A DNA stretch of 64,000 nt from a virus (taxonomy: Duplodnaviria > Caudoviricetes). The position numbers and the translations under genes are program-made. Below, piece after piece: positions 4,120 through 38,052 of the stretch. The stretch's first letter is position 1. Each line of letters opens with the position of its first letter. The stretch covers positions 96,001 through 160,000 of the IMG/VR virus record IMGVR_UViG_3300005330_000014. The stretch is one strand, 5' to 3'. The notes below the pieces were generated by a model. That model was not told the DNA's origin. It saw nothing but the letters and a program-made list of their open reading frames with translations, and did not search any database.

Positions 4120-4506
4120 TTAAAGTAACACTCCTTGTTTAATTTTCGGCTTCAAGGTAAACATATCGGTTAATGGATGATTGTGAGCTTTTGGTTCTCT
4201 GGAGTATCCGCAATAACTTATTTTAAATTCTTCCAGCACCGACTTAATTTCTTCTACTTGTGCAGGCGTGGCATTAAAACTATGACCTATAGATTGGTTA
4301 CTACTCCCTATTATATAAATAACCCGTGAAAGCTTATCGACTTCCACGGTGCAAGATCGCCAAATTTGCCAACCTTTAGTTGTAGCACATACGCACCCAT
4401 GAGGAATACGATCATCTTGTTTACAAATTTCTAATCTGTATCTCGTATCTCCAACCACAGGAAATATTTTATATTCAAAAACAAATTTAGACATTTGGTT
4501 GTTCAA
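4120..4506 (-). CDS. hypothetical protein with HNHPLTDMF motif
   Basis: 128-aa ORF; motif at 4159-4185. Confidence 0.7.
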   Translation of the reverse strand: MNNQMSKFVFEYKIFPVVGDTRYRLEICKQDDRIPHGCVCATTKGWQIWRSCTVEVDKLSRVIYIIGSSNQSIGHSFNATPAQVEEIKSVLEEFKISYCGYSREPKAHNHPLTDMFTLKPKIKQGVLL

Positions 4507-4521
4507 TCAATTAACTAATGA

Positions 4522-4782
4522 CTAATCATTGTACTCAACTAATTCTCTATCAAATCGGCAAGGATCAGTAGCTAATTCTAATTCTTTAAACCAATTATCA
4601 TTACTAGAATCAGTTAATAATAAATGATCGTTTTGTTCCGGGCGGGAGGCGTAAATAGGATAAGCGCGGGCGGATATATTGCCACAAGGTAATTTAATAA
4701 CACTTAAATTGAATTCCGCGCGGTCGCCACGCATCCGAACGCGACGCGGCTTTTTAAGCAAGAAATCTAGAGTTAAATTCAT
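4522..4782 (-). CDS. hypothetical protein
   Basis: 86-aa ORF in the gene run. Confidence 0.55.
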   Translation of the reverse strand: MNLTLDFLLKKPRRVRMRGDRAEFNLSVIKLPCGNISARAYPIYASRPEQNDHLLLTDSSNDNWFKELELATDPCRFDRELVEYND

Positions 4783-4916
4783 TTATTTTTATTCTTTTTC
4801 TTTAATTCTTTCCACTTCAAATACCAAGCTAATTGCCCGGTTAAGCAGTACATTAATGCGTAAAATAGTTTCATAAATAATTAGTGTATTTCAATTTAAA
4901 TATAATTTAGTTTTGT

Positions 4917-5936
4917 TCAAGAATAACTGGCACTTGCGCCGCCGCCGCCGAAACTTCCGCCGCCAGCTTCGATACTAGAGCCGCCGCCGGGGATATTAAA
5001 AGAACTGTTATCATCATTATCTCTGCTCGATCCGCCTAAATTAAACGGAATAGGAACAGGAATATAAGTAGTACTGGTGCTATCGCGGTTGTCATCATCT
5101 TGACGACGCCGACGATTATCACGATATCTATCATTATTATTAACTTTCTTTCTCATTGGAATCGGCACAGGAACAGGCGCGATAACTGGACGACGAGATT
5201 TAGCAATTTTTTGAGTTACTCTAGTCACTGATTTTCTAGATGGACGAATAGAACTGAGAGGGAGAGAATCGGGGCGCGACGGCACAAAAACAGGCACTCC
5301 CTCATACACCCTAGACTCTTTAATTTCTTCTTTCTTTTTAAATACTATTCGATAAGCCAAATAACCAAAAACCCCCAAACAAATCACTACTAAAAATATA
5401 CCTAATGGGTTGCCAGCGTCTTCCGTTTTATTGATTTTAATAACATCCGCCCGAACTAACTGTTTATTGATTTCTGAAATTCCAGATTCCAATCCGGCGG
5501 CATACTGCTTCTGAGCAAATTTCGGAATAATTTGATTATTGAGAATTTGTTTTAATCGAATATCTGGCAAAACAGCTTCGTTTCCGTAACCCGTTTCAAA
5601 CCGTAACTTTTTGACATCAGGAAACCAAAATAAAACTAATCCATTACTCGTTTGTTTTTGTCCGATTTTCCATGCATTGGCAATTCGATTAGTATAATCT
5701 TCCAAAGATGATTCTGTATCGTATTTTAGAATACTAATAACAAATTGAGGATGATTCGGGGCACTTTTTTCAAGATTAGCTAATTCTTCGTTCATTAGCG
5801 CGGCATCGTTCTGAGAAATAATACCTACCCGATCATCAAAATATTTAGTAGGCGCGGGCGGAATTGTTTCGCTGAATGCGTTAAATGCTGAACCAGCCAA
5901 AGCTAGCGCGCCGATAATAAGGGTGAATGTTTTCAT
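4917..5936 (-). CDS. TPM-domain (YgcG-like) membrane protein
   Basis: signal peptide; YFDDRVGII, WKIGQK..NGLVL, ETGYGNEAVLPD TPM motifs; TM helix; Gly-rich GGGSFGGGGAS tail. Confidence 0.88.
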   Translation of the reverse strand: MKTFTLIIGALALAGSAFNAFSETIPPAPTKYFDDRVGIISQNDAALMNEELANLEKSAPNHPQFVISILKYDTESSLEDYTNRIANAWKIGQKQTSNGLVLFWFPDVKKLRFETGYGNEAVLPDIRLKQILNNQIIPKFAQKQYAAGLESGISEINKQLVRADVIKINKTEDAGNPLGIFLVVICLGVFGYLAYRIVFKKKEEIKESRVYEGVPVFVPSRPDSLPLSSIRPSRKSVTRVTQKIAKSRRPVIAPVPVPIPMRKKVNNNDRYRDNRRRRQDDDNRDSTSTTYIPVPIPFNLGGSSRDNDDNSSFNIPGGGSSIEAGGGSFGGGGASASYS

Positions 5937-5953
5937 ATTTATTATTGAGTTAT

Positions 5954-6136
5954 TTATTCATTGACAATTTTATCTAGTTGTTTTATTAATTCGAGCGCGT
6001 TAGAGTTGCACGTATTAGCATATGCTACCGAGTCCGCGTTTCTCGCTTCATCTTGTAAATGTTGAATTTGGCTTTTGATTATTTCCAATTGTGTTAATTT
6101 TAAAGCCGCACGGTTTATATCTAATGGTTCTGACAT
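5954..6136 (-). CDS. small coiled-coil hypothetical protein
   Basis: 60-aa ORF between the TPM and GT genes. Confidence 0.5.
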   Translation of the reverse strand: MSEPLDINRAALKLTQLEIIKSQIQHLQDEARNADSVAYANTCNSNALELIKQLDKIVNE

Positions 6137-9979: not shown

Positions 9980-11482
9980 TTATTTTAGATAAGTTTCAGC
10001 TTGATTTTGACTTTCTAGGAGTGAGCGGATTTCAGAAAGTGTCCAATCTTTTAGTAATTGACTATTCAAAAAAGTAGGAATGAATTCACAATTTAATACT
10101 TCATCCCAACTTACCTGATCTTTTTGGTAATAAACTCCATCTTTATCTTTATAAACTGCAATTAGTCCTTTAGCAGACTTTTTAAGATTACCTTGATCTG
10201 TTTTTGGGTCTTTAAATATTTCTCTGCCTTCTCCGTTAACTTCGACATAAGTACTTTTTACCGCCCATCCGTCCGTATCTCGGCTAATACCATATACCAG
10301 ATAATAACTACCAATTCCGTACACAATATTTGTACTAGCAAATCCCTTCTTTTTTAATCCTTCACAAATTTTATTAAGAACGTCCCAATTAACGCCATCA
10401 CCAAGAATGGCACCGACTTTAGGATTTAATTCTTTGTATCCTTTAGCGTTAACAGTCCCGCCAAAAATTTCCCATAATCTTTCAATAGTTCCTTTATTTT
10501 CAACGCTACCTTCAGGAGCATCAGGATCACCAATAATAATTTTAACATTATCCCCGCTATCAGGACGAAAAACAGTTTTTCCATCACGGGCTAGAATTTT
10601 ATCTTTTAAAGTAATTGTAAATTCATTAATTACTCTCCAATAATCCCGGGTATCACTGACTATACTAACAATACCACGAGGATAAACGTCTTCAATTAGG
10701 CGACGGAACGCTTCGATTTCATTTTCGGGGCCGTAAGAAGCCATTACTGCGTGCTCACTTGCATTAACCGAACAAGATACTAATTCTTGATCCGAATTAG
10801 CATTATAATACTCTTCCATAAACTCAACGCCGGGCACCGTATCAGAGCCAACGAAGGAAGTGATAAATCCCGCGTCAATTAAAATTGCCGCTTCATGCCC
10901 AACACAACCACGATAAGAAAAGTTATGTCCTTGAAATTTAACGAAATCAGTATTTCCTACCGTTTCCATTGCGTATTTACTTAACAAGTCTTTAATTTGT
11001 TTTGCAGTGGTTGCGGCGGTAGATATAGGCCAAATATTGCAAGACATAATAGTTTCAACATATGCTTGAAGCCAGCCGAAATCTTTATGAGTAGTAAAAT
11101 ATATCAATGGAGCTACTTTATAAGGGACAAGGCTTCCCTCCGGTAAACAAAAGAATGCTAGCGGCAAATAACCTAAATCATGCAAGGCGGCAATATGCTC
11201 CACCCCTACATCATTCGGTCCAAGATAGTTATTAATACGACGAGTGAATCTCTGAACTACTTCTTCTTTAGGTTTTTGGAAGAAATTTTCATTCCATTGT
11301 TTAATTAAAAATTCTTTGAAGAAATATTGTGCTCCCACCCAGACGACGCCACTTTTAGGCGTAATTTGTCGATAAGATTTGCGCGGCGTCATGTTACCGA
11401 AAGCCAATGTCATCCCCGGTATAAATTGCCGTCTATGACCAATTTTATAAGCGTCGATTGTAGTTTCTGGTGTTATTTTCAT
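9980..11482 (-). CDS. nadV: nicotinamide phosphoribosyltransferase-like protein (NAMPT; possibly Namat of NARP1)
   Basis: DAYK, HNFSYRG, ASEHAVM, SIVSDT, VFRPDSG, ILGDGV, FKDPKTD, KKSAKG motifs; likely start ATG 11482 (track extends to 11533). Confidence 0.92.
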   Translation of the reverse strand: MKITPETTIDAYKIGHRRQFIPGMTLAFGNMTPRKSYRQITPKSGVVWVGAQYFFKEFLIKQWNENFFQKPKEEVVQRFTRRINNYLGPNDVGVEHIAALHDLGYLPLAFFCLPEGSLVPYKVAPLIYFTTHKDFGWLQAYVETIMSCNIWPISTAATTAKQIKDLLSKYAMETVGNTDFVKFQGHNFSYRGCVGHEAAILIDAGFITSFVGSDTVPGVEFMEEYYNANSDQELVSCSVNASEHAVMASYGPENEIEAFRRLIEDVYPRGIVSIVSDTRDYWRVINEFTITLKDKILARDGKTVFRPDSGDNVKIIIGDPDAPEGSVENKGTIERLWEIFGGTVNAKGYKELNPKVGAILGDGVNWDVLNKICEGLKKKGFASTNIVYGIGSYYLVYGISRDTDGWAVKSTYVEVNGEGREIFKDPKTDQGNLKKSAKGLIAVYKDKDGVYYQKDQVSWDEVLNCEFIPTFLNSQLLKDWTLSEIRSLLESQNQAETYLK

Positions 11483-11490
11483 ATTATTAT

Positions 11491-11562
11491 TTATTTTGTT
11501 ATTTGTTGATGTTTTGAAAATGTGCCGCGCCAAAAGTAAACGTGAGAATTGGTGATTTTCAT
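11491..11562 (-). pseudogene. probable N-terminal remnant of a NADAR gene (23 aa)
   Basis: MKITNSHVYFWRGTFS resembles the NADAR start (xxTxxxVyFWxgxFS); stops after 23 codons. Confidence 0.4.
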
Positions 11563-11565
11563 AAT

Positions 11566-12468
11566 TTAAATCTTTTCTCCGATAACCTGTTGGATTGTAG
11601 TATCCAAACTAAAAGTAATATTTTTCATTAATTTAGGCGCGCGGAGTTCTGTTTGAATCAATACATCATTTTTGCGCGGATACTCTGGATGAATTGCTAC
11701 ATGAATATTTTTCTCCCCTTTATTACATTGTTCTAATAACGTTCCATATTCAAGTAGGGTAATTGGGGCAACGGTTTCGTGGCTAAAATAAAATAGTATA
11801 TTCTCGCACAGTTCTAAGTGCTTATATTCCCACGCAATTTGTTCTCTTTCTACGTTTGGATCAGTAACATCAAAATTAGCCCGACGAGGGTTGGCTATAT
11901 TAAAAAATGGAAGTAATTTAGTTGCCGCTTCTGTTTGCCAATTATGCGCTCCACTAATTGAACCAGCAAGAAATAACCATTCATTATGAGGAAAAAATCC
12001 ATATCCATAAAAACACTCTGGAGCTTCTAGATAAATATGATTATTCCGTTCCCCCTTGATCAAAGTAATTGCTTCTTTTAAAATTTCATAACTTTCTGAT
12101 AACCCACTCTTATCGTCCAAAAGAAGATTATAGTAAAGTTTAGCCCCCGGGCCATAGTCAATTCCGGGGATATTTTCATTGATATATTCAACTTTAATAC
12201 CTACCAATTGAAAGAATGCATAAATGAAACGATATCTTTCAATCCGCGAGCAAGTATAAGGAATAACATAAAATCCTAATTCGTTGCATTCTCTTAAAAT
12301 GTCTAAAATCTTATTATGGGTAGTTCCGCAACCCTCTGGGTATTCGCTAACTGTGCAGTCGAAATCCACGGCTATAATCAATTTCTTATGTTTTTTATAA
12401 GTCTCAAATAATTTGTTGACGCAATTAGCACGGTCGAAATAAGGATCGGATTGAGTAGTCAGTTTCAT
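11566..12468 (-). CDS. fusion of HAD-family hydrolase and nucleoside 2-deoxyribosyltransferase-like domain
   Basis: N-terminal IIAVDFDCTV and LLLDDK (HAD); C-terminal FLAGSI..NWQ, NPRR, QIAWE..HLE, PITLLEYG (Nuc_deoxyri_tr2-like). Confidence 0.78.
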   Translation of the reverse strand: MKLTTQSDPYFDRANCVNKLFETYKKHKKLIIAVDFDCTVSEYPEGCGTTHNKILDILRECNELGFYVIPYTCSRIERYRFIYAFFQLVGIKVEYINENIPGIDYGPGAKLYYNLLLDDKSGLSESYEILKEAITLIKGERNNHIYLEAPECFYGYGFFPHNEWLFLAGSISGAHNWQTEAATKLLPFFNIANPRRANFDVTDPNVEREQIAWEYKHLELCENILFYFSHETVAPITLLEYGTLLEQCNKGEKNIHVAIHPEYPRKNDVLIQTELRAPKLMKNITFSLDTTIQQVIGEKI

Positions 12469-12476
12469 GAATTAGT

Positions 12477-12905
12477 TTATTTAAAATCTTTCAATCGGGC
12501 AGCGGCTTCTTCTTCTGTTTTAAATCCGGTAAAATTTATAACTCTGTCGCTCAATCCAAAGCTTACTTCTAGAACATACTCTTGGGCTTGCGGGTTATAA
12601 AACATTTGGTTATTATATTTTTTAGCTAATTCGGCATTGAATTTTTTAAACTCTTTTTCTCGCGGATTAGGTTTTAGTTGTTTAAACTGAAAGAAATAGC
12701 CGTTTTTATTTTTACCAGATTTCACGCCATAAGAAGCCTGAGTTAATAACTTTTTACTGTAGGGATTTAAATCATCTAAATATATCAAAATTTCAGGGAG
12801 AAATCTAAGTAAACTTAACGAGTCAATTTGTTCATCACCAAACTTCATTGATTTGGCTATGGAACGTAAAATTTCTTCGCGGGTATAAGTTTTTTTCTTT
12901 GTCAT
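12477..12905 (-). CDS. hypothetical protein, possible C-terminal AP2-like DNA-binding element
   Basis: ends with GFKTEEEAAARL. Confidence 0.55.
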   Translation of the reverse strand: MTKKKTYTREEILRSIAKSMKFGDEQIDSLSLLRFLPEILIYLDDLNPYSKKLLTQASYGVKSGKNKNGYFFQFKQLKPNPREKEFKKFNAELAKKYNNQMFYNPQAQEYVLEVSFGLSDRVINFTGFKTEEEAAARLKDFK

Positions 12906-12909
12906 AAAA

Positions 12910-13773: not shown

Positions 13774-13777
13774 ATTA

Positions 13778-13927: not shown

Positions 13928-13955
13928 TTATTAGCAATATTTTTGAGCATTTAAA

Positions 13956-23068: not shown

Positions 23069-23389
23069 TTAATCTTTCAGTTTTTTTATTTTGTCGCTCG
23101 CAAACATATCTGTCAAAGGGTGATTATGTGTTCTATCTGATTTGTCTAAAATAATCATATTATTGTAAACATAATTTCTCATTTGGGCGTATTCTCTATC
23201 TGCGTCTCGATAAAAATATACTAAAGTTTTGCCGGTTGTACGACTCACGCTGGTAGATAAAATCTTAAAACCGCGCTCATTATTGTCCAGTAATAATTGA
23301 TAACTTCTAGGGCCGACTCCGATATCCCGCAAATCTTCTAGAGATAATGAAGGTTTAATCCTAAATTTTAATCCGGGTTTTAGGTTCAT
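23069..23389 (-). CDS. hypothetical protein with HNHPLTDMF motif
   Basis: motif at 23102-23128. Confidence 0.7.
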   Translation of the reverse strand: MNLKPGLKFRIKPSLSLEDLRDIGVGPRSYQLLLDNNERGFKILSTSVSRTTGKTLVYFYRDADREYAQMRNYVYNNMIILDKSDRTHNHPLTDMFASDKIKKLKD

Positions 23390-26925: not shown

Positions 26926-27240
26926 TTATTTAGGGATAACCAAAGTAAACATTGTTGTTAAGGGGTGATTATGGTCTTTTAAAGTTTTTTGTTTAGTTTT
27001 GGCTGGCTGGACATGTTGCGAAAGTATAGTAATATAATGATTGTCATAATAAAAATCAAGGTATCCGCCGACTCTGCTTATATAATCAATACGGAATACT
27101 TCTCCGCTCTCAAATATTTCTTTTGCTAGCTCTAGATTTAAACCATTGTATTCAGCTAAATTTTCAATGATTTCTTCCGGCAGGCGATTAATGGTAATGA
27201 AATCCCCGCGTTCTAATTTTTGAAATTCAGCTAATTCCAT
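26926..27240 (-). CDS. hypothetical protein with HNHPLTTMF motif
   Basis: motif at 26947-26973. Confidence 0.7.
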   Translation of the reverse strand: MELAEFQKLERGDFITINRLPEEIIENLAEYNGLNLELAKEIFESGEVFRIDYISRVGGYLDFYYDNHYITILSQHVQPAKTKQKTLKDHNHPLTTMFTLVIPK

Positions 27241-27689: not shown

Positions 27690-27697
27690 AAAAATTA

Positions 27698-28238: not shown

Positions 28239-28266
28239 AAGATAGCACTGATTTTAGAAAAGTCAA
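28239..28266 (-). promoter_or_regulatory. sigma70-type promoter
   Basis: TTGACT-16 nt (ending TGC)-TATCTT. Confidence 0.62.
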
Positions 28267-28282
28267 AGTTTGTTTTTTAAAA

Positions 28283-28945: not shown

Positions 28946-28965
28946 ATTCTTTATAAAGTTATTTA

Positions 28966-29409
28966 TTAATCTAAAATTTCCGTTTTTGGTTCATGAAAAG
29001 TAATTACATCAAAAGTTTGATCTTGTTTGATTAAGTAAGCTTTCAGCTTAAATTTCGGAACAATTACTAAATCATTTAAATTACTGGATAAATAACCAAA
29101 GATACGCCTTCTGTTTGGCCTTTTGTCATTTAAAAAAACTTCCATGAACATAAAACTATAGGCTCGGAACCAATGATTATTAAATCTAAAAATAGCCCCC
29201 TTTTGTAAATCCTTGACGGGCATTAATTCGTAATTACGTTGATTAACTCCAGCAGAAAATAACATAGAAATATTAATTATTGATAATAGGTTAAAAATGG
29301 CCGGTTTTACGTGTTTGCCGGTATGGGGTAGAAAGGATAACCACTGGAGAGAATGAAAAACTCCGGCGACACAATCCCCTTTTTTGTTGCTAACTAGGCA
29401 ACCAACCAA
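28966..29409 (-). CDS. hypothetical protein containing an FRFxxxW repeat unit
   Basis: GAIFRFNNHWFRA; true start uncertain. Confidence 0.5.
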   Translation of the reverse strand: MVGCLVSNKKGDCVAGVFHSLQWLSFLPHTGKHVKPAIFNLLSIINISMLFSAGVNQRNYELMPVKDLQKGAIFRFNNHWFRAYSFMFMEVFLNDKRPNRRRIFGYLSSNLNDLVIVPKFKLKAYLIKQDQTFDVITFHEPKTEILD

Positions 29410-30372
29410 CTAACTAACCAAATGTTTAGAGGAATTAGCTAATCCCCATTCAGAATAAACATCTAAATCTTTGACATCTCTTAGCTGATTTAAGCGAATA
29501 GTTAAGTGTTTTGGTAAATTCAAGGCAGCAACGATTTCTTCTGCAAGTCCCTTGTTGTTTTCAATAACGGCAGAACGCGCCATCTCTTTTTTAATTTTGA
29601 AAATAGATTTGTAATCATCATTAAAATAACGATTTACCGCTTCGGTAGCTAAATCATATATTAACGCAACCAATTTAGGAGAACTAATCCAGTAGTTAGA
29701 TAATAGTCTATATTCCAGTCCGGGATATTCAGGCTTAGGACGATGCGCCCCTAGATTACGACCATACAGAGTTTTGCGTTGCAATGAAGTAGTATCATTG
29801 TCCACCAAAACAAAAGGCACCGCCACAAAATAATCTAATAACTTAACTAAAGTAATGACACTATCAAAATCATTTAACGGCAAGCTTTTCTTTCTGTCTT
29901 GGTCGGCACGGGCAATTGCGAAATGTCCGCCCGCCGAGCGACGAGCACCACTAAAATCAGGCGGGATAATTTGGCATACGTCCCATGCATCATACTCAGG
30001 ATTACAACCAATTTTATTGGCTTCTGGGTGTTCCATGAAGCGTGGATCAAATTCATGACTAGCTTTAATTTTAATCTTAAACCGGCCTTCACTCTCTTTG
30101 ATTAAATAATCATTAATTAAACTTAATGACGAGCCAATACTTTTAATAAAATCTTCTTTAGAGGTTGCGGGGCGAACCGTAAATTCTCCCATTGTATTAT
30201 CATAATAAAGATTAGTATGTTCGTCCAACCGAATTGGATCATACTTGTCCACTTTAAGTACGTCAATTGCGCTCACAACATCTCCGCTTGAAACATCTTC
30301 AATAAAAAATTCAGGATCGGCCCCAAAAGTTAATGCGGTTGTTTTATTTACTAATTCATTTTTGCTTTTCAT
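29410..30372 (-). CDS. phiEco32-like COOH.NH2 ligase type 2
   Basis: TFGADPEFF, DNTMGEF, GCNPEYDAW, RSAGGH, LYG..GAHRPK, GLEYRLLSNYW. Confidence 0.9.
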   Translation of the reverse strand: MKSKNELVNKTTALTFGADPEFFIEDVSSGDVVSAIDVLKVDKYDPIRLDEHTNLYYDNTMGEFTVRPATSKEDFIKSIGSSLSLINDYLIKESEGRFKIKIKASHEFDPRFMEHPEANKIGCNPEYDAWDVCQIIPPDFSGARRSAGGHFAIARADQDRKKSLPLNDFDSVITLVKLLDYFVAVPFVLVDNDTTSLQRKTLYGRNLGAHRPKPEYPGLEYRLLSNYWISSPKLVALIYDLATEAVNRYFNDDYKSIFKIKKEMARSAVIENNKGLAEEIVAALNLPKHLTIRLNQLRDVKDLDVYSEWGLANSSKHLVS

Positions 30373-30418
30373 TTTTTCTCCTTGTTTGTTATTATCTCTA
30401 TTTTAGTTTATTTTAATA

Positions 30419-30709
30419 TTACGTGATTTTATGAGGTTTTTTATTTAATACACAAACCTTCTTATATACAGGAATGTTGTAATAAACATCTTCCGCCCTT
30501 TCTCTAGCATTAGGTTCGCGGCCCCAATTTTCTGATACTTTTATCATCCATTTTCTGTCATATCGAAACTCTGAACCTATTCTAATATCTTGGAATGACT
30601 CAAAAGAATAAACAGGGCTAAACAAATCTAAATATTGATATTCGGGCCACATTTGGTTTTTAATTATAATATCTGTCTGAATAGTTGTCCGAATTATTCT
30701 CGCGGTCAA
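30419..30709 (-). CDS. small paralog (FRYxxxWxxK family)
   Basis: IGSEFRYDRKWMIKV. Confidence 0.65.
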   Translation of the reverse strand: MTARIIRTTIQTDIIIKNQMWPEYQYLDLFSPVYSFESFQDIRIGSEFRYDRKWMIKVSENWGREPNARERAEDVYYNIPVYKKVCVLNKKPHKIT

Positions 30710-30857
30710 TATGCTTCATATAATTAGGCCGCATTGCTAAATAATTCATATATCTACAAAGATTAATGTCGGGATGTTTCTTTTTCTTAAATCGCACACA
30801 ATGTAGCAAATTAAATAAAAGAATAATCAGAATATAAATAACGAAATCGTTCATTTT

Positions 30858-32018
30858 TTATTCCTCCCAAGAATTAACTACTTCACTGTCATCAATTTCT
30901 AACATTTGGACTCGACGATTTCTGCCGCCAACTTGGACAATTCCTGAAACTACAAATTTCTTACCCATTTTAGTTACCCTTAAATTGGAAACATCAGGAA
31001 ATTCAAACGTTCGATGATTATTAGCATTATTATTAACTGGGGCAGCAACAGCCCGAGGTTGGACAGGAGGCGGAACGGCAACGCGAACAGGTTCAGGTGC
31101 CGGTGCTGGAGCGGCGCGAACTACTGGCGGCGGAGCTACGGGAGCAGGAGGGGCAGGAGCTACGCGGGCAGCTTGCGGGGCGACGACAGCGGCAGGAATA
31201 GCCGGAACAGGAGTAATAGCCGGGACCACTCTATTATTTAATACATCAGTAATTACTCTTGTATAATTTCTTAATGTGGTAGACTCTAGGTTATCCCCCA
31301 AACTAGAACAACTATTCAACTCTAGAACAACGCAATTCCGATTAGTTTCATTGTAACAAATATCTACGCTAGCTAGGTCTAACCCTAAAGCATTCATTGC
31401 TTTAATTGATTCAACTTTAACGCAATCGGGAAGCGTTACTCCTTCACGAGCGAAAATCCATTGACCATGATTTCTAATTTGATAATTAACTTCGGTGCCT
31501 TCTGGAAGGTCTGAGCGAACTTTCTTTTGAATATAATCGAAAATCTTAACTCCATCGCGGTCACGAATCATATGCACACGATATTCATGTTTCTTAGGAA
31601 AATACTTAACATATAATTGAGTGCGAGGACTTAATTGCGCCTCAGTTTCAGCGATAACTAATCCGGCGGCTGAATGTCCATTTAATATTTCCCGGCAAGC
31701 TACCTTGCTCCCCTCGCGAATCCATCGTGCAGCCACCGCGCGATCTTCTGTAAATTCAGGAATTGAAACATTAGCTTCTCTTAATTTAAGAAATGTTTTC
31801 TTTTTGCAAACAGCAATAGCAACGCTACGGGGGTTATTCAACCATCTAACGTTAGCATTATTCCAGACAGGCTGACCAGAAAAACCTAAATTAACAACTA
31901 AATGATTCGGATTATAAGTATAATCACCGTCAGAACGAACACGGGGACAATTTAATGATTGAGCGAGTAAACGGCCCGCTGTAGATGTTGGCTTGTATGC
32001 AATAACGCGTGGATTCAT
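30858..32018 (-). CDS. ATP-grasp (RimK-like) ligase with Pro/Ala-rich linker and small C-terminal domain
   Basis: CKKKTF, GHSAAG loop, HEYRVH, IRN, ALGLDLASVDI, VLELNS; low-complexity linker at 31038-31229. Confidence 0.85.
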   Translation of the reverse strand: MNPRVIAYKPTSTAGRLLAQSLNCPRVRSDGDYTYNPNHLVVNLGFSGQPVWNNANVRWLNNPRSVAIAVCKKKTFLKLREANVSIPEFTEDRAVAARWIREGSKVACREILNGHSAAGLVIAETEAQLSPRTQLYVKYFPKKHEYRVHMIRDRDGVKIFDYIQKKVRSDLPEGTEVNYQIRNHGQWIFAREGVTLPDCVKVESIKAMNALGLDLASVDICYNETNRNCVVLELNSCSSLGDNLESTTLRNYTRVITDVLNNRVVPAITPVPAIPAAVVAPQAARVAPAPPAPVAPPPVVRAAPAPAPEPVRVAVPPPVQPRAVAAPVNNNANNHRTFEFPDVSNLRVTKMGKKFVVSGIVQVGGRNRRVQMLEIDDSEVVNSWEE

Positions 32019-32056
32019 AATATTTATTACTTGTTAGTTTTTGATTTAGTTGTTAG

Positions 32057-33133
32057 TTATTTCTCGGTTTCTTTATTCATTTGTTCAGCTAAGATTTCAC
32101 CTATAGACGTATTCAAAACGTTTGGATTTGAAGGAGGTAGCAATAAAAGTGGTTGCCCATCATTATCTAGTTTTAATTTTTCAGGATTTAAATCTAATTC
32201 TTTTTGAGTTATTTCATGATCGAAAACCTCAACATATTCCAATTTTTCGTTCTCTAAATCGTGAGAATATTTCAGCCGAGCAGTTAGTCTTATTTGGTCC
32301 GGCACAGTCTCTAACTCTCTTATGATATATTTTCTAATTAGTTTCTTGATTCCTTTATGATGTTTTTTGTATAACCATACAAGTTGGCTAATGGATAATT
32401 CGCGCGAATAAGGATCGTCCCACAACACATATTTTTTTTTTATAGAATCCAAATCTCCCAATAGTGACATTTCAGACATTCTGTGGGCAACAACTTCTTG
32501 AATCGGCCCTTGATATTTAAATGTCTTTTTAGTTCTAGAAAATGATTGCGATGGCAAATATGCTGTTTTTTGCTTAAGTGGTGCGGGCATCCAAATCTTA
32601 TTACTATGCCATACTGTTTTTTCTTCATTCCAATGACCTAAAGACTCATTAAAAATATAAAACTCTCCTTTATTATCTAATATTACCATCTTGGAAGAAT
32701 TAATATATCTTTCAATTAATTTTTTGAACCACCATGTAGTATAAGCTTCTATGTCTCCAGCAAGTATTTTTCGTAGAATAATGTTATTAAAAACATAAGT
32801 GTCACTATGTTCTCCTTTGAAATCCAAATCCGATATTGTTCCATTAAAAGCAAAACATACGTTATCATTAATAGAAAATGGATGTAAGTTTTCAGGGATA
32901 ATATGCCCGGACGAACATTTTCTAAAATGAACTAAAATAGGACACCCTGCTGGGATTAATGAGTAAAATTCATGAAAAGCTTTTAAATCTTTGTCAAAAT
33001 CTTTTCTAATAAACAATTGATTATCTTGCATATAAGCAATACCTAATCCATCATTATTTATTTTATAGATACTTTCAAAGGTTTCAAAAGTTTCCCGCTG
33101 AGAGTTAGGTTTATTTACGATAATAAGGCACAT
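32057..33133 (-). CDS. class II (Ntn) glutamine amidotransferase
   Basis: N-terminal MC, NNDGLG, HFRKCSSG, LHPF, FNGTI, SDT. Confidence 0.85.
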   Translation of the reverse strand: MCLIIVNKPNSQRETFETFESIYKINNDGLGIAYMQDNQLFIRKDFDKDLKAFHEFYSLIPAGCPILVHFRKCSSGHIIPENLHPFSINDNVCFAFNGTISDLDFKGEHSDTYVFNNIILRKILAGDIEAYTTWWFKKLIERYINSSKMVILDNKGEFYIFNESLGHWNEEKTVWHSNKIWMPAPLKQKTAYLPSQSFSRTKKTFKYQGPIQEVVAHRMSEMSLLGDLDSIKKKYVLWDDPYSRELSISQLVWLYKKHHKGIKKLIRKYIIRELETVPDQIRLTARLKYSHDLENEKLEYVEVFDHEITQKELDLNPEKLKLDNDGQPLLLLPPSNPNVLNTSIGEILAEQMNKETEK

Positions 33134-33160
33134 TGGTAGTGGTGGTTAATTATGGAAATC

Positions 33161-33188
33161 AGACTAGCATCAAAAAGAGGAAAGTCAA
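33161..33188 (-). promoter_or_regulatory. sigma70-type promoter (near-duplicate of 37541-37568)
   Basis: TTGACT-16 nt (ending TGC)-TAGTCT. Confidence 0.7.
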
Positions 33189-33236
33189 ATTTTCGTTTTT
33201 AGGTGAATTTTTTAATTTAATGACTTAATTATTTAG

Positions 33237-33437
33237 TTATTTGAGATGAAAACTTAATGTCATCACGCTTTCTTTTCGAGGAAACTGGGTAGGGTTGGCC
33301 CACGTTTTGTCTCCAACGAATTTTACTGCAAAATCATCATTCGTTTTAAGCCAAGTGTCTTCTAGAGCGCGGAATTTACCATTAATTTTAATAGCCTCAA
33401 AAATTGAAAGCGTCCATTTTCGTTTGACATTTGACAT
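33237..33437 (-). CDS. small hypothetical protein
   Basis: 66-aa ORF. Confidence 0.45.
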   Translation of the reverse strand: MSNVKRKWTLSIFEAIKINGKFRALEDTWLKTNDDFAVKFVGDKTWANPTQFPRKESVMTLSFHLK

Positions 33438-33468
33438 AAAATATAATATTATTTCTCGATACTTGTAT

Positions 33469-34308
33469 TTATATCATGTCCCCGATTTCAATCGATGCGA
33501 TTTCTGAATCTTCCAATAAGCCTTTTAAAAAAACTCCACGCTCTCTAGTGTTATAAGTAAATGGGACTATCTTATTTATTTTTCTAGGAAAAACCTGATC
33601 TAAATCCGCCTTTTTCTCTTTAATAGCCAAATCATAGCAAGGATAACAATGTTTTTTACCATTATACATGTGTCCGTTGCCGTAACCAACGAAAGGCTGC
33701 CCGCATTTTTCGCATTTATCCTTGGGAGGAATAACATAGCTAGGAGTTGAATTATATTTGAATAAACTAATATTTTCGGAGGTTCTAATTCCTTTCCCTC
33801 CACATTCCCACCAGTCCATAACCGGATTAAAAAAGTTAAACTTTCCGTCGTTATTCATTATTACGAAACGGCTGGATGTAGGTAACACTTTTTCCACTAA
33901 AAATTTAAAATAATCAGAACTAGCAGCGGACTTATTACAAAATCCTTTCAATAAGATTAATAAATTAATTGCGTGGCAATATTCAGGTTTATTAAGACTT
34001 GCTTTCATGTCCCAAATACGACCAGTCTGAGCCATAACTAAATCTTGGTCTATACGATACGGGCCACAAAAACCTTTGGTATTTTTTTCTGTGTAAGGTT
34101 CTTTAGCTATATCAATTAAACAAGAATGAGTTTTATTCTGTTCGTATAATTTAAGCAAGGAGTCGAATTGCTTGAAGTTTTTACGAATATATATTTTTCC
34201 ATTTTTAGCTACCGCAATACCATATAAATCCGCCCGCTCATTCTTCATTTTTTCTATTAAAATTTCTGGCAACTCAATATCGGCAGGCTTACAAATTAGA
34301 ATACTCAT
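33469..34308 (-). CDS. degenerate class II glutamine amidotransferase-like protein with C-terminal zinc finger
   Basis: MSILICKP start (Cys replaced), DLYGIA, VIMNNDGKF; CEKC...CYPC. Confidence 0.65.
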   Translation of the reverse strand: MSILICKPADIELPEILIEKMKNERADLYGIAVAKNGKIYIRKNFKQFDSLLKLYEQNKTHSCLIDIAKEPYTEKNTKGFCGPYRIDQDLVMAQTGRIWDMKASLNKPEYCHAINLLILLKGFCNKSAASSDYFKFLVEKVLPTSSRFVIMNNDGKFNFFNPVMDWWECGGKGIRTSENISLFKYNSTPSYVIPPKDKCEKCGQPFVGYGNGHMYNGKKHCYPCYDLAIKEKKADLDQVFPRKINKIVPFTYNTRERGVFLKGLLEDSEIASIEIGDMI

Positions 34309-34364
34309 AAAAACAAATAATATATTTCAATAATTTTAAGTTAATTTTTAACTACATACCAATA

Positions 34365-34931
34365 CTAATCGCGGAATCTCATATTCATATAGTCATATTC
34401 TTCATCAGGATCATAATGTTTATATGGTTTGCCATAAATACCATAATGAATTCCATTATAAATATATTTACTATATAAATGGTAAAAAGTAAATTCTCCA
34501 TTATTATTTAACAAAGCGATTGGAACTACTTTAGATATTGCTTCATCTAATAAATATCCAAAATTAGTTTGAGTAGGGTCTTTAGTAAGCTTACAAAACT
34601 TATCCAATAACGCAGATATGTTTAATAGATCAATACTATCTTTTGAATCAAACACAACCGAGTATTTGCCGTGGCAAAAGAAAATTGGCTCAACCTCTCT
34701 TTTGACAATACTAATCAAGGCTGCATAATTTTCCTTGTTAAGCCAATCAATTGTTTTTACTAATTCTCTGACTGAAGAGATTTTAATAAATCCTAGCGTT
34801 GATTTTTCGGAGCAATAAGCATATACAATATATATAAAATAATTGCCAATTGTTTGGTTATTTTTGGTTTCGATATTTTCTAAAATATCATCGAAATCTA
34901 ATTCAGCATTTTTTACTTTTGCTATAAACAT
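34365..34931 (-). CDS. highly degenerate class II GATase-like paralog
   Basis: IALLNNNGEFTFY parallels VILDNKGEFYIF and ALLDNEGKIEII in neighbours; no N-terminal nucleophile. Confidence 0.5.
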   Translation of the reverse strand: MFIAKVKNAELDFDDILENIETKNNQTIGNYFIYIVYAYCSEKSTLGFIKISSVRELVKTIDWLNKENYAALISIVKREVEPIFFCHGKYSVVFDSKDSIDLLNISALLDKFCKLTKDPTQTNFGYLLDEAISKVVPIALLNNNGEFTFYHLYSKYIYNGIHYGIYGKPYKHYDPDEEYDYMNMRFRD

Positions 34932-34971
34932 AAGTTTAGGTTTAAAATTTTAGTTTAAATCTTAAACTATA

Positions 34972-36582
34972 CTATTTAATAGCTTGATTGTAAGTTTTAG
35001 TATAAAAAGACTTAAATTCGTCGTTGGCATCGAAAAACTTATATAAGTAAGGATAATCTTGTCTGTTTTTGCAAACAAATTCATAGAAGAACACCCAGCT
35101 TGCCATATCTTTAATCGAAGCATTACCGGGGCGGCAGAAATCGCACAAAGAGGCCACGAAATCTATGTTTTTCAATAACTCATTTTTGTCTTTAGTTGAT
35201 CTGAAAATTCTAAATTCTACTGTTTGACCGTTGCTAGATTCAAAATTCACAGCAGTTCTATGATCGAATTTAAGTCTAATAACTTCCCCAGCCCCAGAAA
35301 CGATATGCCCATTTTTAAATTGGAGGCCGCGAGTTGTAGTAAAGTCACTAAACATATTTGCTTTACGACCGGCCATAATCTCAATAAATTGTCTATTGTT
35401 GGGGTTATGAATAAACGTCATTAATTTAGAGGCGGCAAGACCATAACCGCTCTGCCCTAGAGTTTTACCGTACCAATCATCTCCATGAGTTAAAGCATTT
35501 TTACTAATATGAATATGGCACCCGCAGCCCGTTCCCCGATCAGCCCCTTGTTGGGGAGGTTGATAAGGAGCGCAATAAATACTATCATTATTTAATATAG
35601 CCTCAAAGAAACTATTCCACGCTTCGCGATGATATTTAATATCAGCGGGGCAAGAAACCACTTCAAATCCCATTTGTAATGTGCCATCCCTCTTAATAAT
35701 AGCTTTTAATTCGCTCTTTTTAATTACTTCATCGGCATCAATCAAACCGCGACCATAATTGTCTCTAACTTCGTATTCTAATTCTACTCCAATTAATTTT
35801 GGATGTACTCCGCTTGCCGTAACAGAAAAAGAGTTAATATCTTTATCACCGAAAGCGGCTTTTGTAATCTCGCTAACTAATTTATTAGAAGAATCGCTAA
35901 TATGTTCTTTAAAATGGCGCTCGCTTCTATCAGTATAGGCTTTCAGAATAATTCTAGAAGCATTTCCCTGACAATTACCGCAAAATCCTTTATAAAAGTT
36001 TTTAGAATTTTCAAAGTTATGCTGACAGTATTTACATGTAACAATCTTTTTTGCATCAAAACAAGATTTGCAGCAATTACCAGAATTTCCATTATTTAAA
36101 ATAAAAGGAACATAAGAAGATAAACTATTTACTGTTATCTTTTTTTCACATAAACTGCATTTCATATCTAAGCTTGAATCTAAACTTGAATCTTCGGTTT
36201 CAGTTACCGTGAAATAACTATTACCATAAATTGATACGGAGGGATTAATAGGTCTACGTAAAGGATGTTTAATCTCATTATTACTTTCATCAGAACAATC
36301 TTCCTCTTGAGAGTCTGCCCTTTTTTCCGAAACTTTAGGGGCTCGTGTTTTAATTACTTTGCTCCCTCTAACTACTGAATTATATTTAATTGGACGAGGC
36401 TCTTTCGGGGCAGACGCCTTAGCATAACTCAATTCTTCGTTCTGAGCCGGAATAGATTTCTTTAATTCTCCTCTCTTTGTTTCTAATTCCTCAATGCGCT
36501 CGCGAAAACTTCTCGATGCAGTCTCGACGTAAGGCTTTACGGTAATAGAAGGTTTTGATTCGATATTTTTTTCTTCAGACAT
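34972..36582 (-). CDS. putative amidoligase (COOH.NH2 ligase superfamily) with N-terminal Cys-rich region
   Basis: IGVELEYE, KRDGTL..GFEVVS, GCGCHIHIS, AVN, TVEFRIF; four CxxC pairs upstream. Confidence 0.88.
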   Translation of the reverse strand: MSEEKNIESKPSITVKPYVETASRSFRERIEELETKRGELKKSIPAQNEELSYAKASAPKEPRPIKYNSVVRGSKVIKTRAPKVSEKRADSQEEDCSDESNNEIKHPLRRPINPSVSIYGNSYFTVTETEDSSLDSSLDMKCSLCEKKITVNSLSSYVPFILNNGNSGNCCKSCFDAKKIVTCKYCQHNFENSKNFYKGFCGNCQGNASRIILKAYTDRSERHFKEHISDSSNKLVSEITKAAFGDKDINSFSVTASGVHPKLIGVELEYEVRDNYGRGLIDADEVIKKSELKAIIKRDGTLQMGFEVVSCPADIKYHREAWNSFFEAILNNDSIYCAPYQPPQQGADRGTGCGCHIHISKNALTHGDDWYGKTLGQSGYGLAASKLMTFIHNPNNRQFIEIMAGRKANMFSDFTTTRGLQFKNGHIVSGAGEVIRLKFDHRTAVNFESSNGQTVEFRIFRSTKDKNELLKNIDFVASLCDFCRPGNASIKDMASWVFFYEFVCKNRQDYPYLYKFFDANDEFKSFYTKTYNQAIK

Positions 36583-36628
36583 ATAATTTAATGGTTAATA
36601 ATTTTGTTTGACTTAGTTTTATTGAGTT

Positions 36629-37492
36629 TTATTTACTTGTCGCGTTGATAGTATCTAAATAATGATCTACCTCTTCGAGTTCATCAGCGGGGATTTCTTC
36701 TAAATTAACAAAATCTTCTGCTTCAGATTCTAAACGTAATGTTTCTGCCATGCGGTCTGCGGCATCTAGTTCATTTTCAATATCTACTACATTATCTTCA
36801 TTACTGTCATGCTCTGGAAAATCAGGGTCCACCGGATGATTAACTATTCTAATTAGTCCGCCGCCCGTTCCGCTATTTTGCCTATGAGGATTAGGGCCAA
36901 AATAACTATTATTTATATTATTATTTGTAAATCTTTCTTTAATTTCTTTATAATATCCGTTAGATGCCCAAATTACTCCTTCTTCGATCCATTCCCCGCT
37001 TTCCTCATTAATTATTTCGATTTTTCCCTCGTTATCTAATAAGGCTAATTTATTTCCTTTCCCAATGGCATTTTTAACAAACCACAAAAAACCTTTATTT
37101 CTCCACCATTTCCTTTTCGGGTTATCATTATCAAAACCTTTTAGGATAATTTCTCCAAATCCAAAGGTATCGCTCATTCCAGCAAATTTAGAACTAAAAT
37201 AATGTAAAACTCCATTATGGCAAAAATGCAAACGGTCTGAAATTACAAACGGGTGGCAATTAGCTTCATTTTTGGCTCCACTGGTGGCAAATCGGGCGTG
37301 GACGATAATTGGACAACCAATAGTTTTTTTGTAAGCTTCATACAATGAAGCAAAATCAAAAAATCCTTTTTCTATATGAATAGCCCCATCTTTAAAATAA
37401 GAGAAGCCCGCTCCATCTCCGTTTGAATTAACAATGTTTTCCAGAAATTCCGCCGGTAGTTCTTTTCCAGTCGATGTTAGAATAGTACACAT
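36629..37492 (-). CDS. class II (Ntn) glutamine amidotransferase
   Basis: N-terminal MC, NGDGAG, HARFATSG, CHPF, HNGVL, SDT. Confidence 0.9.
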   Translation of the reverse strand: MCTILTSTGKELPAEFLENIVNSNGDGAGFSYFKDGAIHIEKGFFDFASLYEAYKKTIGCPIIVHARFATSGAKNEANCHPFVISDRLHFCHNGVLHYFSSKFAGMSDTFGFGEIILKGFDNDNPKRKWWRNKGFLWFVKNAIGKGNKLALLDNEGKIEIINEESGEWIEEGVIWASNGYYKEIKERFTNNNINNSYFGPNPHRQNSGTGGGLIRIVNHPVDPDFPEHDSNEDNVVDIENELDAADRMAETLRLESEAEDFVNLEEIPADELEEVDHYLDTINATSK

Positions 37493-37540
37493 ACGATTTA
37501 ATACTGATTTATTTCGTCTTTTTTGGGTTATGTTGAAATC

Positions 37541-37568
37541 AGGCTAGCATCCAAATCTGAAAAGTCAA
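37541..37568 (-). promoter_or_regulatory. sigma70-type promoter (near-duplicate of 33161-33188)
   Basis: TTGACT-16 nt (ending TGC)-TAGCCT. Confidence 0.7.
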
Positions 37569-37635
37569 ATTTTCGTTTTTTTCGCCTGAGCTTTTAGTTT
37601 ATCTAAATTTATTGATTTGTTTCAAGTAAAGCAAA

Positions 37636-38052
37636 TTACCACGGGAGAGCTTCATCTCGATATTCCTCTTCAAGAGATTCTAAGATTTCGTCTATTTCAT
37701 CCGCCTCTGACTTGACAATATTCTTTTTATGTTTAACTGACCTAGATTTTCCTTTATCTTTATCTAAAACAAACATGTCGGTTAGAGGATGATTATGATA
37801 AAAACCAGCTTTTAATTCTTTGTTTATAGGTTTGATTTCAGTATCTAAAATCAGGCTTAAGATATAATAAGATATTCTCCATTTAGAAAAACCGGGGACT
37901 ATCACGGTATTACTCTGACTGAAAGTATTTATTAGGTATGTATTTTTACTTTCGCAACTAAATATTTCTACGATCTCTCCCCAAGACTTATGGAAAGCTT
38001 CTTTAACAGAAAATCTCGCGCCCGGCTTTAGTAATGTTCCAAGATTATTCAT
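37636..38052 (-). CDS. hypothetical protein with HNHPLTDMF motif and acidic tail
   Basis: motif at 37771-37797. Confidence 0.7.
   Translation of the reverse strand: MNNLGTLLKPGARFSVKEAFHKSWGEIVEIFSCESKNTYLINTFSQSNTVIVPGFSKWRISYYILSLILDTEIKPINKELKAGFYHNHPLTDMFVLDKDKGKSRSVKHKKNIVKSEADEIDEILESLEEEYRDEALPW

What the first reader, a model, noticed from the sequence alone, without database searches (positions are those of the whole stretch)
4159..37797. Nine-residue HNHPLT(D/T)MF tag near the C-terminus of four scattered, otherwise divergent proteins
Seen: HNHPLTDMF at 4159-4185, 23102-23128 and 37771-37797, and HNHPLTTMF at 26947-26973, in proteins of 104-138 aa, usually followed by a Lys-rich stretch. 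The DNA differs at synonymous sites (Pro CCA/CCT/CCC/CCT; Leu TTA/TTG/TTA/CTA; Thr ACC/ACA/ACA/ACC), so selection acts on the peptide and this is not a DNA repeat. The bodies share little beyond a weak LKPGxxFxI start in two of them. I recognise no family with this motif. Inference: a shared linear docking or sorting signal, for example for capsid loading/ejection, binding one host or phage hub protein, or substrate recognition by the neighbouring amide ligases (three of the four copies lie in or beside that region).
Basis: partly seen in the sequence, partly recalled or inferred. Interest (0 to 1): 0.85.

Follow-up and report, generated by a model that had tools for sequence, protein, structure and literature searches.

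The report
Private C-terminal docking tag on phage proteins
Seven otherwise unrelated small proteins of a 208-kb soil phage, and two more in related phages, end in the same peptide (H-x-H-P-L-T-x-M/L-F), which behaves like a strongly selected docking tag for a partner that is still unidentified.

Summary
HNHPLT(D/N/T)MF occurs at the four stated window positions and three more times elsewhere in the same 208,233-bp phage genome. It always sits 3-44 residues from the C-terminus of a small orphan protein (81-138 aa). Outside the motif, the bodies and the flanking DNA are unrelated. It is the only recurrent peptide of 8 or more residues in the proteome. Codon differences are synonymous except at position 7.

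A profile search of 1.84 billion proteins found one further carrier, in a related phage, again directly upstream of a ClpP-family protease gene. A second relative carries HKHPLTDLF on the small gene that overlaps dnaE. In both cases only the tail aligns with the counterpart in this phage. So this is a lineage-private short linear motif, not a paralog core or a DNA repeat.

The partner is not identified. My leading guess (about 0.3) is the phage's own ClpP-family protease together with an AAA+ protein whose homologs all end in a ClpP-docking-like [L/I/F]-G-F tail. Rivals are a sliding clamp, a capsid-packaging tag, a modification site, or an unknown host hub. The complex prediction gave no answer. 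Other first-stage readers of this scan noted the same motif on this genome only.

The parts
4120..4494 (-). Carrier gene 1 (P0001, 124 aa from the ATG at 4494; stop at 4120-4122), directly upstream of an RNA-ligase-family gene
   Evidence: no Pfam or PHROG hit
4159..4185 (-). Motif copy HNHPLTDMF, 12 residues before the stop
23069..23389 (-). Carrier gene 2 (P0002, 106 aa)
23102..23128 (-). Motif copy HNHPLTDMF, 10 residues before the stop
26926..27240 (-). Carrier gene 3 (P0003, 104 aa), downstream of a GGACT-family gene
   Evidence: a one-residue body variant (P0012) from another sample keeps the motif
26947..26973 (-). Motif copy HNHPLTTMF, 6 residues before the stop
37636..38052 (-). Carrier gene 4 (P0004, 138 aa), which follows a roughly 500-nt intergenic region; 44 residues follow the motif, ending in an acidic stretch ...EALPW
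   Evidence: no homolog in the 5.8-billion-protein collection
37771..37797 (-). Motif copy HNHPLTDMF

Best explanation
HxHPLTx[M/L]F, followed by one small and one hydrophobic residue, is a lineage-private short linear docking tag. It is attached through a mildly basic linker to the C-terminal end of a set of small, rapidly evolving accessory proteins, and it connects all of them to one common partner. This general part I hold at about 0.85. For the partner, my leading candidate is the phage's own proteolytic machinery: the ClpP-family serine protease P0009, possibly working with the classical-clade AAA+ protein P0010, whose homologs all end in a ClpP-docking-like [L/I/F]-G-F tail. Under this reading the tag marks the carriers either as clients to be removed on schedule or as adaptors. 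As adaptors, their variable bodies would bring other proteins to the protease, in the manner of the SspB tail that docks on ClpX (from general knowledge). Shown here: the motif, its selection, its portability across unrelated bodies, its conservation in relatives, and its repeated position next to the ClpP gene. Inferred only: that it binds anything in the ClpP/AAA+ system.
For: General claim. There are seven copies on unrelated orphan bodies. Substitutions are synonymous except at position 7. It supplies the only 8- and 9-mers shared by 3 or more proteins of the proteome. Positional counterparts in two related phages keep the tail while their bodies do not align. One carrier ends two residues after the Phe, so the tag is the functional end of the protein and is unlikely to be a cleavage site. 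Partner claim. Carrier P0007 overlaps the ClpP start codon by 4 nt. In a phage whose ClpP is 71% identical, the unrelated 62-aa P0013 with the tail KKIKTHNHPLTNMF lies 9 nt upstream of ClpP. The ClpP family keeps its catalytic Ser and His in all 44 aligned members and its Asp in at least 90% of them. In four lineages it sits among nucleotide-metabolism genes, once with a DnaJ gene nearby, and not next to head genes. The genome has no ClpX/ClpA-type ATPase. It does have an AAA+ protein of the BCS1/Rpt clade ending in RLGF, and homologs in PA5oct, XacN1 and a faecal phage end in KIGFGN, VAFGFQAK and KIGFR. The motif is absent outside this lineage, which fits a lineage-specific receptor surface better than a universal pocket.
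Against: Nothing here shows binding. Two relatives (ClpP 74% and 68% identical) have no carrier in front of ClpP. Other carriers sit just as tightly next to dnaE, so adjacency may only reflect variable gene slots beside conserved anchor genes. By my reading of its sequence, P0010 resembles BCS1 in lacking an obvious aromatic pore loop, so its role as an unfoldase is unproven. P0010-like ATPases occur mostly in phages without this ClpP family. P0010 lies between DnaB and the primase, so a replication role is possible. The tag is not at the extreme C-terminus in P0004, unlike classical terminal degrons.
Confidence: 0.3

Rival explanations
1. Sliding-clamp tag. The tail docks the carriers onto a sliding clamp, either the host beta clamp that the phage DnaE must borrow or an unrecognised phage clamp. 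This would resemble T4, where the C-termini of gp43, gp33 and gp55 share one tail for gp45.
For: The last five residues, L-T-(D/N/T)-(M/L)-F, meet positions 3-5 of the canonical motif Q-aliphatic-x-[L/M]-[F/L]. The only freely variable residue falls at the position the literature calls freely variable, and the only other change seen (Met to Leu) is the permitted one (definition in PMC11139829). With PIP-box spacing, N-H-P-L-T-D-M-F parallels p21 Q-T-S-M-T-D-F-Y and has basic flanks (PMC6881253). Carriers sit directly before dnaE in two phages. The phage has DnaE but no clamp or clamp loader of its own. The T4 precedent of interchangeable C-terminal clamp tails on unrelated proteins is documented (PMC2988020).
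Against: Positions 1 and 2 (Gln, aliphatic) are not met. The invariant H-x-H-P has no role in known clamp motifs. Likely genuine clamp tails in this lineage look different: DnaE ends in QTEMIYS, QSELALS and QISMNL in three relatives, which is Gln-initiated and freely drifting, and a 50-aa ORF ends in QTDLF. A motif for a universal pocket should not be private to one lineage or frozen at 8 of 9 positions. No PCNA- or gp45-type clamp is detectable.
Confidence: 0.2
2. Unknown hub. The tag docks onto some other single partner not considered above, for example a host protein such as RNA polymerase or a chaperone, or one of the many orphan phage proteins.
For: Every candidate-specific argument above is indirect. 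About half of the phage's genes have no recognisable family, including the whole head module. The fast-evolving bodies and the early or auxiliary gene context fit host-takeover proteins.
Against: This is a default position with no positive evidence for any particular partner. A conserved host hub would not obviously explain why the motif is private to one lineage.
Confidence: 0.2
3. Packaging tag. The tail loads the carriers into the procapsid for ejection into the next host. It would be a C-terminal counterpart of the T4 capsid-targeting sequence or of encapsulin cargo-loading peptides, with the ClpP-family protein acting as the head-maturation protease.
For: T4 internal proteins are diverse defence-countering proteins that share only the targeting sequence (PMC3012670), which is the same pattern of variable bodies plus a constant tag. 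The carriers are small. P0009's best PHROG matches are head-maturation proteases. No protease is recognisable in the head module.
Against: All seven carriers and the ClpP gene lie in the two non-structural arms, packed tightly inside operons with replication and nucleotide-metabolism genes. The ClpP family keeps that context in distant relatives. Carrier pI ranges from 5.3 to 9.7, so they are not uniformly basic. The tag is C-terminal, unlike the T4 sequence (N-terminal by general knowledge).
Confidence: 0.12
4. Modification site. The nine residues are the recognition site of a phage enzyme that modifies the Pro, Thr or Asn. Candidates are the prolyl-hydroxylase-like 2OG-Fe(II) oxygenase, one of the roughly ten soluble glycosyltransferases, or the amide ligases.
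For: Invariance at 8 of 9 positions is more typical of enzyme recognition than of a docking groove. A PF13640 oxygenase lies a few kb downstream of ClpP here and in a relative. The window holds COOH-NH2 ligase, Peptidase_C26, GGACT and amidotransferase-like genes. A sibling note describes a glycosyltransferase island.
Against: No carrier is specifically linked to any of these enzymes in the relatives. The amidoligase and transferase genes may equally serve DNA hypermodification (my inference). No known sequon or hydroxylation motif matches (from memory).
Confidence: 0.08
5. Relic of common ancestry. The carriers are diverged paralogs, and the tail is simply their slowest-evolving, structurally buried segment with no separate docking role.
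For: Two carriers share a weak LKPGxxFx(I/V) start. The single-sequence fold predictions were too poor to exclude a common fold.
Against: No body similarity is detectable. Body lengths before the motif range from 43 to 103 residues. Positional counterparts in relatives differ completely in the body yet keep the tail. One carrier ends two residues after the motif and another continues for 44.
Confidence: 0.05

Closest known systems
C-terminal sliding-clamp-binding tails of phage T4 gp43, gp33 and gp55 (partner gp45)
   Same: Unrelated proteins of one phage carry highly similar short hydrophobic C-terminal tails, joined to the body by a divergent flexible linker. The tails are interchangeable between proteins (PMC2988020). 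The carriers include small proteins; gp33 is 112 aa.
   Different: No gp45-, PCNA- or beta-type clamp or clamp loader is detectable in this phage. The tag here has four extra invariant residues (H-x-H-P), is basic-flanked rather than acidic, and sits on seven orphans rather than on polymerase and transcription factors.
Bacterial beta-clamp-binding motif, Q-aliphatic-x-[L/M][F/L] (for example E. coli Pol III alpha QADMF)
   Same: L/M then F at the last two positions, a freely variable third position, and frequent location in C-terminal tails (PMC11139829).
   Different: Gln and the aliphatic second residue are missing. The lineage's own DnaE carries a separate, canonical, drifting Q-x-x-[ML]-x-[YL] tail.
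T4 capsid-targeting sequence on internal proteins, and encapsulin cargo-loading peptides
   Same: A short conserved tag is the only thing shared by a diverse, fast-evolving set of small proteins (PMC3012670). Encapsulin tags are C-terminal (general knowledge).
   Different: The T4 tag is N-terminal and removed by the prohead protease (general knowledge). Here the genes are embedded in replication and metabolism operons, and no virion data exist.
Adaptor and degron tails of Clp proteases (SspB C-terminal ClpX-binding peptide; ssrA tag)
   Same: A short conserved terminal peptide after a flexible linker connects a variable substrate-binding body, or the substrate itself, to a protease (general knowledge). 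A ClpP-family gene is the neighbour of a carrier in two phages.
   Different: There is no sequence resemblance to those peptides. The candidate ATPase is a BCS1-like classical AAA protein, not ClpX or ClpA. Binding is untested.

Membership tests
Bacterial beta-clamp-binding motif (Q-aliphatic-x-[L/M][F/L] or the hexamer form; PMC11139829) | Gln at position 1 | tested here: not met
   Position 1 is Leu in all nine copies in the pentamer register; no register places a Gln
Bacterial beta-clamp-binding motif | Aliphatic residue at position 2 | tested here: not met
   Thr in all nine copies
Bacterial beta-clamp-binding motif | Variable position 3, L/M at position 4, F/L at position 5 | tested here: met
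   D/N/T, then M (8 copies) or L (1 copy), then F (9 copies)
Bacterial beta-clamp-binding motif | Binds the hydrophobic pocket of DnaN | not testable with these tools
PIP-box / T4-type clamp tail (Q-x-x-[LIM]-x-x-[FY]-[FY]) | Gln at position 1 and aromatic residues at positions 7 and 8 | tested here: not met
   Asn or Lys at position 1 and Met or Leu at position 7; only L4 and F8 fit, plus the T-D pair as in p21
PIP-box / T4-type clamp tail | A PCNA- or gp45-type clamp encoded by or available to the phage | tested here: not met
   No PF00705 or PF02916 match in six frames at E up to 10; a very divergent clamp cannot be excluded
T4-type capsid-targeting sequence | N-terminal tag on proteins made with the head proteins and found in virions | tested here: not met
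   The tag is C-terminal and the genes lie in non-structural arms; virion content is not testable here
Clp degron or adaptor tail | Peptide at the extreme terminus (ssrA type) or a tail that docks on the unfoldase (SspB type), with a partner protease present | tested here: inconclusive
   A partner protease and an AAA+ protein are present, but 2-44 residues follow the tag and binding is not shown
Ordinary paralog family | Detectable similarity along the protein bodies | tested here: not met
   All-against-all blastp of the bodies gives E of about 0.02 or worse; no shared Pfam or PHROG family
DNA repeat or mobile-element end | Conservation at the DNA level that extends into the flanks | tested here: not met
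   Synonymous sites are scrambled and the flanks are unrelated

The most novel reading that the evidence does not exclude
The phage lineage runs its own targeted-degradation system. A family of interchangeable, fast-evolving adaptor proteins uses one private tail to plug into a phage-encoded AAA+/ClpP protease, and each adaptor delivers a different host protein (for example a defence factor) for destruction. This would be a bacterial-virus analogue of the way eukaryotic viruses hijack ubiquitin ligases.
Probability: 0.1. Interest if true: 0.9.

Novelty: new variant of a known kind. Interest (0 to 1): 0.62.

Why it matters
Shared terminal tags on unrelated phage proteins are rare, and where understood they have been very informative. 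The T4 clamp tails revealed clamp-activated transcription, and the T4 capsid-targeting sequence revealed injected anti-restriction proteins and became a packaging tool. This tag is unusually long, almost invariant, and private to one soil phage lineage, so it points to a single specific partner that a simple pull-down could identify. Finding that partner would assign a first functional handle to nine orphan proteins at once. If the partner is the phage's ClpP/AAA+ pair, it would uncover phage-run regulated proteolysis. The tag could also serve as a portable handle for engineering.

Tried and rejected
1. Complex prediction of P0010 plus two copies of the ClpP-family protein plus carrier P0007: no answer. 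The score was 0.00 and the orphan chains folded poorly without alignments.
2. Single-sequence AlphaFold2 of P0004 and P0002: mean pLDDT 38 and 50. This is too poor to say whether the tail is disordered or whether the two bodies share a fold, so no fold search was attempted.
3. Exact and relaxed DNA-pattern scans of IMG/VR and one scan of JGI metagenome contigs: only out-of-frame or chance matches.
4. Word-indexed protein search restricted to the motif region: only two candidates were collected, so it is not a sensitive test and I drew no conclusion.
5. Host identification through the phage PRPP synthetase in genome contigs: only chance hits at 23-24% identity. The 'relatives' option is not available for a virus record.
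6. Searching the full 75.6-kb relative contig: the record is not held.
7. ESM Atlas look-alikes for two carrier bodies: nothing usable.
8. Promoter and terminator scan around the carriers: counts no different from shuffles.
9. Rejected idea, intein-like or Asn-cyclisation cleavage at H-N: there is no Hint-fold body and no nucleophile after the Asn.
10. Rejected idea, sortase- or exosortase-type sorting signal: no hydrophobic span follows the motif.
11. Rejected idea, protease cleavage site: P0013 would release only a dipeptide.
12. Rejected idea, RiPP precursor: the bodies are not conserved and the tails are only 2-12 residues, with no consistent neighbouring maturase.
Full report
**Where the window lies.** The window is bases 96,001-160,000 of a 208,233-bp IMG/VR phage record with 34.8% G+C and a CheckV completeness estimate of 95%. 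The structural genes (terminase, probable portal, tail genes, tape measure) occupy about 198.7-208 kb and 1-36 kb. Two long non-structural arms diverge near 135.7 kb. The phage has no close relative in the phage collection: its DnaE is at most 28% identical to any phage there. Only 9% of genes have a Shine-Dalgarno core and upstream regions are A/T-rich. Together with the low G+C and the rhizosphere samples that hold the same contigs (their rhizosphere origin is my recollection of the sample numbers), I infer a Bacteroidota-type host. This is not shown.

**The observation.** A six-frame scan of the whole genome finds three more copies on the plus strand, at genome 180308, 180642 and 186851. 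These lie in ORFs of 98, 109 and 81 aa. Every in-frame occurrence of H-x-H-P inside a predicted protein belongs to one of these seven.

The motif is the most recurrent peptide in the proteome and supplies the only 8- and 9-mers shared by three or more proteins. Seven 6-mers are shared by three or more proteins, against 0.1 in shuffled proteomes, and five of the seven come from this motif. Among the seven copies, 69 codon-pair differences are synonymous and 14 are not, and all 14 fall at position 7 (D/N/T). The DNA flanks and the protein bodies are unrelated, and no carrier matches any Pfam or PHROG family. It is not a DNA repeat and not a recognisable paralog family.

**Is the motif found elsewhere?** Exact and relaxed back-translated patterns found only out-of-frame chance matches in IMG/VR and in the JGI metagenome contigs. 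I then searched a profile of the seven aligned C-terminal segments (A1) with HMMER against 1.84 billion representative proteins. It returned the seven carriers and exactly one further protein, P0013 (62 aa), which ends ...KKIKTHNHPLTNMFCV.

P0013 is encoded on a 13-kb soil contig with the same local gene order as this phage (GH16, DUF5662, DnaE and so on). It lies 9 nt upstream of a 200-aa ClpP-family gene that is 71% identical to the one in this phage. In this phage the carrier P0007 occupies the same place and overlaps the ClpP start by 4 nt. P0007 and P0013 align only over the last 16 residues.

A second relative (ClpP 68% identical, DnaE 62% identical) has a 107-aa gene whose end overlaps the dnaE start and which ends ...IKHKHPLTDLFLPEEKYILTQ. 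This is the positional counterpart of P0006, and again only the tail aligns.

Two other relatives have no carrier in front of ClpP, and segments from more distant relatives (ClpP 49-51% identical) have none at all.

The conserved core is therefore H-x-H-P-L-T-x-[M/L]-F, usually followed by a small and then a hydrophobic residue, and preceded by a mildly basic stretch (mean net charge about +2 over 12 residues, against +0.1 background). Conservation of the tail on bodies that have diverged beyond recognition is the signature of a short linear motif with its own function.

**What the tag is not.**
- It is unlikely to be a cleavage site. One carrier ends two residues after the Phe while another continues for 44.
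- It is not a membrane-sorting signal, because no hydrophobic span follows it.
- The carriers are not uniformly basic (pI 5.3-9.7).
- All seven genes are packed inside operons of replication, nucleotide-metabolism and auxiliary genes, with gaps of 4-80 nt except for P0004.

**Candidate partner 1: a sliding clamp.** The last five residues resemble the bacterial clamp-binding motif. The literature defines this as Q-aliphatic-x-[L/M][F/L], with Gln important but not essential, a freely variable third position, and frequent location in C-terminal tails (PMC11139829). The tag meets positions 3-5 and the location. Its only variable residue falls at the variable position, and the only other substitution seen (Met to Leu) is the permitted one. 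With PIP-box spacing it parallels p21 (QTSMTDFY, with basic flanks; PMC6881253). T4 provides a precedent for unrelated proteins sharing an interchangeable C-terminal clamp tail (PMC2988020). The phage has DnaE but no clamp or clamp loader of any type detectable by profile, so it presumably borrows the host's.

Against this, Gln and the aliphatic second residue are missing and the invariant H-x-H-P is unexplained. More tellingly, the lineage's own DnaE already ends in a canonical-looking hexamer that begins with Gln and drifts between relatives: QTEMIYS, QSELALS and QISMNL. A 50-aa ORF also ends in QTDLF. If those are the clamp tails of this lineage, the frozen, Gln-less, lineage-private tag most likely serves a different receptor.

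**Candidate partner 2: a phage protease system.** The ClpP-family protein P0009 matches PF00574 at 2e-19. In 44 aligned family members it keeps its catalytic Ser and His invariant and its Asp in at least 90%. It belongs to a family of more than 1,300 proteins of about 200 aa. In four separate lineages the gene sits among dUTPase, dCMP deaminase, ThyX/ThyA and DHFR genes, and once a few genes upstream of a full-length DnaJ gene. It is never seen next to head genes. This favours a cytoplasmic role, although its best PHROG matches are head-maturation proteases and the head module is too divergent to show whether it holds its own protease.

The genome has no ClpX/ClpA-type ATPase. It does encode a 355-aa AAA+ protein, P0010, whose nearest solved relatives are BCS1 and proteasomal Rpt subunits, not clamp loaders or DnaC. 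P0010 ends in ...RLGF, and homologs in Pseudomonas phage PA5oct, Xanthomonas phage XacN1 and a faecal phage end in KIGFGN, VAFGFQAK and KIGFR. From general knowledge, an [L/I/V]-G-[F/L] tripeptide is what Clp ATPases insert into the hydrophobic pockets of ClpP. I found no paper describing such a phage ATPase.

Two things make this my leading candidate, at about 0.3: a carrier sits tightly next to ClpP in two phages, and a private motif fits a lineage-specific receptor such as the unique N-terminal 180 residues of P0010. It remains an inference. Adjacency to ClpP is not universal and adjacency to dnaE is equally tight. P0010 lies between DnaB and the primase. P0010-like ATPases mostly occur in phages without this ClpP family.

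**Other readings.** A C-terminal packaging tag analogous to the T4 capsid-targeting sequence (PMC3012670) fits the pattern of variable bodies with a constant tag but not the gene context. An enzyme recognition site would explain the near-total invariance but has no specific support; the candidate enzymes are the PF13640 oxygenase near ClpP, the glycosyltransferases or the amide ligases. An unknown host or phage hub remains a substantial default.

**What could not be resolved.** The single complex prediction gave no answer. Single-sequence folds of two carriers were of low confidence. The host could not be identified.

**Verdict.** This is a real, strongly selected, portable C-terminal tag that is private to one lineage of large soil phages and sits on nine orphan proteins so far. 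It works like the known shared terminal tags of phage proteins but is not a member of any of those families by sequence, and its partner is open. Other first-stage readers of this scan noted the same motif in overlapping windows of this genome. It has not been seen on other DNA in the scan.

Noticed in passing
L036:2078-3145 (+), genome 162078-163145, about 2 kb beyond the window's end: A classical-clade AAA+ protein (P0010, 355 aa; nearest solved relatives BCS1 and Rpt subunits) ends in ...RLGF. Homologs in phages PA5oct, XacN1 and a faecal phage end in KIGFGN, VAFGFQAK and KIGFR. This conserved [L/I/F]-G-F C-terminal tail resembles the ClpP-docking tripeptide of Clp ATPases. It may define an undescribed family of phage partners for ClpP (phrog_14322, function unknown).
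   Followed up: partly
L001:10898-11500 (+), genome 186898-187500: A phage ClpP-family protease (P0009, 200 aa) has invariant catalytic Ser and His and a nearly invariant Asp across 44 aligned homologs. It belongs to a family of more than 1,300 proteins that sits among nucleotide-metabolism genes in several phage lineages, once a few genes upstream of a full-length DnaJ gene, and is not next to head genes.
   Followed up: partly
L001:8110-8142 (+), the last residues of dnaE; also L044:7476-7508 and L045:2881-2913: The phage DnaE ends in QTEMIYS, and two relatives end in QSELALS and QISMNL. This conserved, drifting Q-x-x-[ML]-x-[YL] C-terminal hexamer is of the canonical beta-clamp type, in a phage with no clamp or clamp loader of its own.
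   Followed up: partly
L034:19612-19764 (-), genome 79612-79764: A 50-aa ORF with a small N-terminal body and an Asn/Lys-rich linker ends in QTDLF at the extreme C-terminus, a classical beta-clamp motif shape. A sibling reader also noted it. Whether it is expressed is unknown.
   Followed up: partly
whole genome; 57 copies, many in window 40000-64000: The G+C-rich palindrome CCGCGCGG occurs 57 times in a genome of 35% G+C.
   Followed up: partly
whole genome (275 ORFs of at least 80 aa): Only 9% of genes have a Shine-Dalgarno core within 20 nt upstream, and the upstream regions are A/T-rich without G enrichment. This suggests a host with SD-independent initiation, such as Bacteroidota.
   Followed up: partly
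window 37639-37770 (-): Carrier P0004 alone continues for 44 residues past the tag: a Lys-rich stretch and then an acidic stretch ending ...EEEYRDEALPW. This recalls the acidic, aromatic-ended tails of single-strand-binding proteins.
   Followed up: no
window 9980-15649 and 26183-37492 (-): The window holds a dense set of NAD and nucleotide salvage genes (NAPRTase, PRPP synthetase) and amidoligase-type genes (COOH-NH2 ligase, three Peptidase_C26, GGACT, an N-terminal-Cys amidotransferase-like protein). Many neighbouring proteins of 240-540 aa have no family.
   Followed up: no
window 16185-17231 (+): A lone plus-strand ORF (348 aa, faint LAGLIDADG_3 match) is embedded in the minus-strand arm, probably a homing endonuclease.
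   Followed up: no
L031:18530-19636 (-), genome 18530-19636: A 368-aa structural-module protein (possibly the major capsid protein, no family match) contains an internal ...GDYGMTDMFLSPE..., the only other x-T-D-M-F in the proteome. This is probably coincidence.
   Followed up: no
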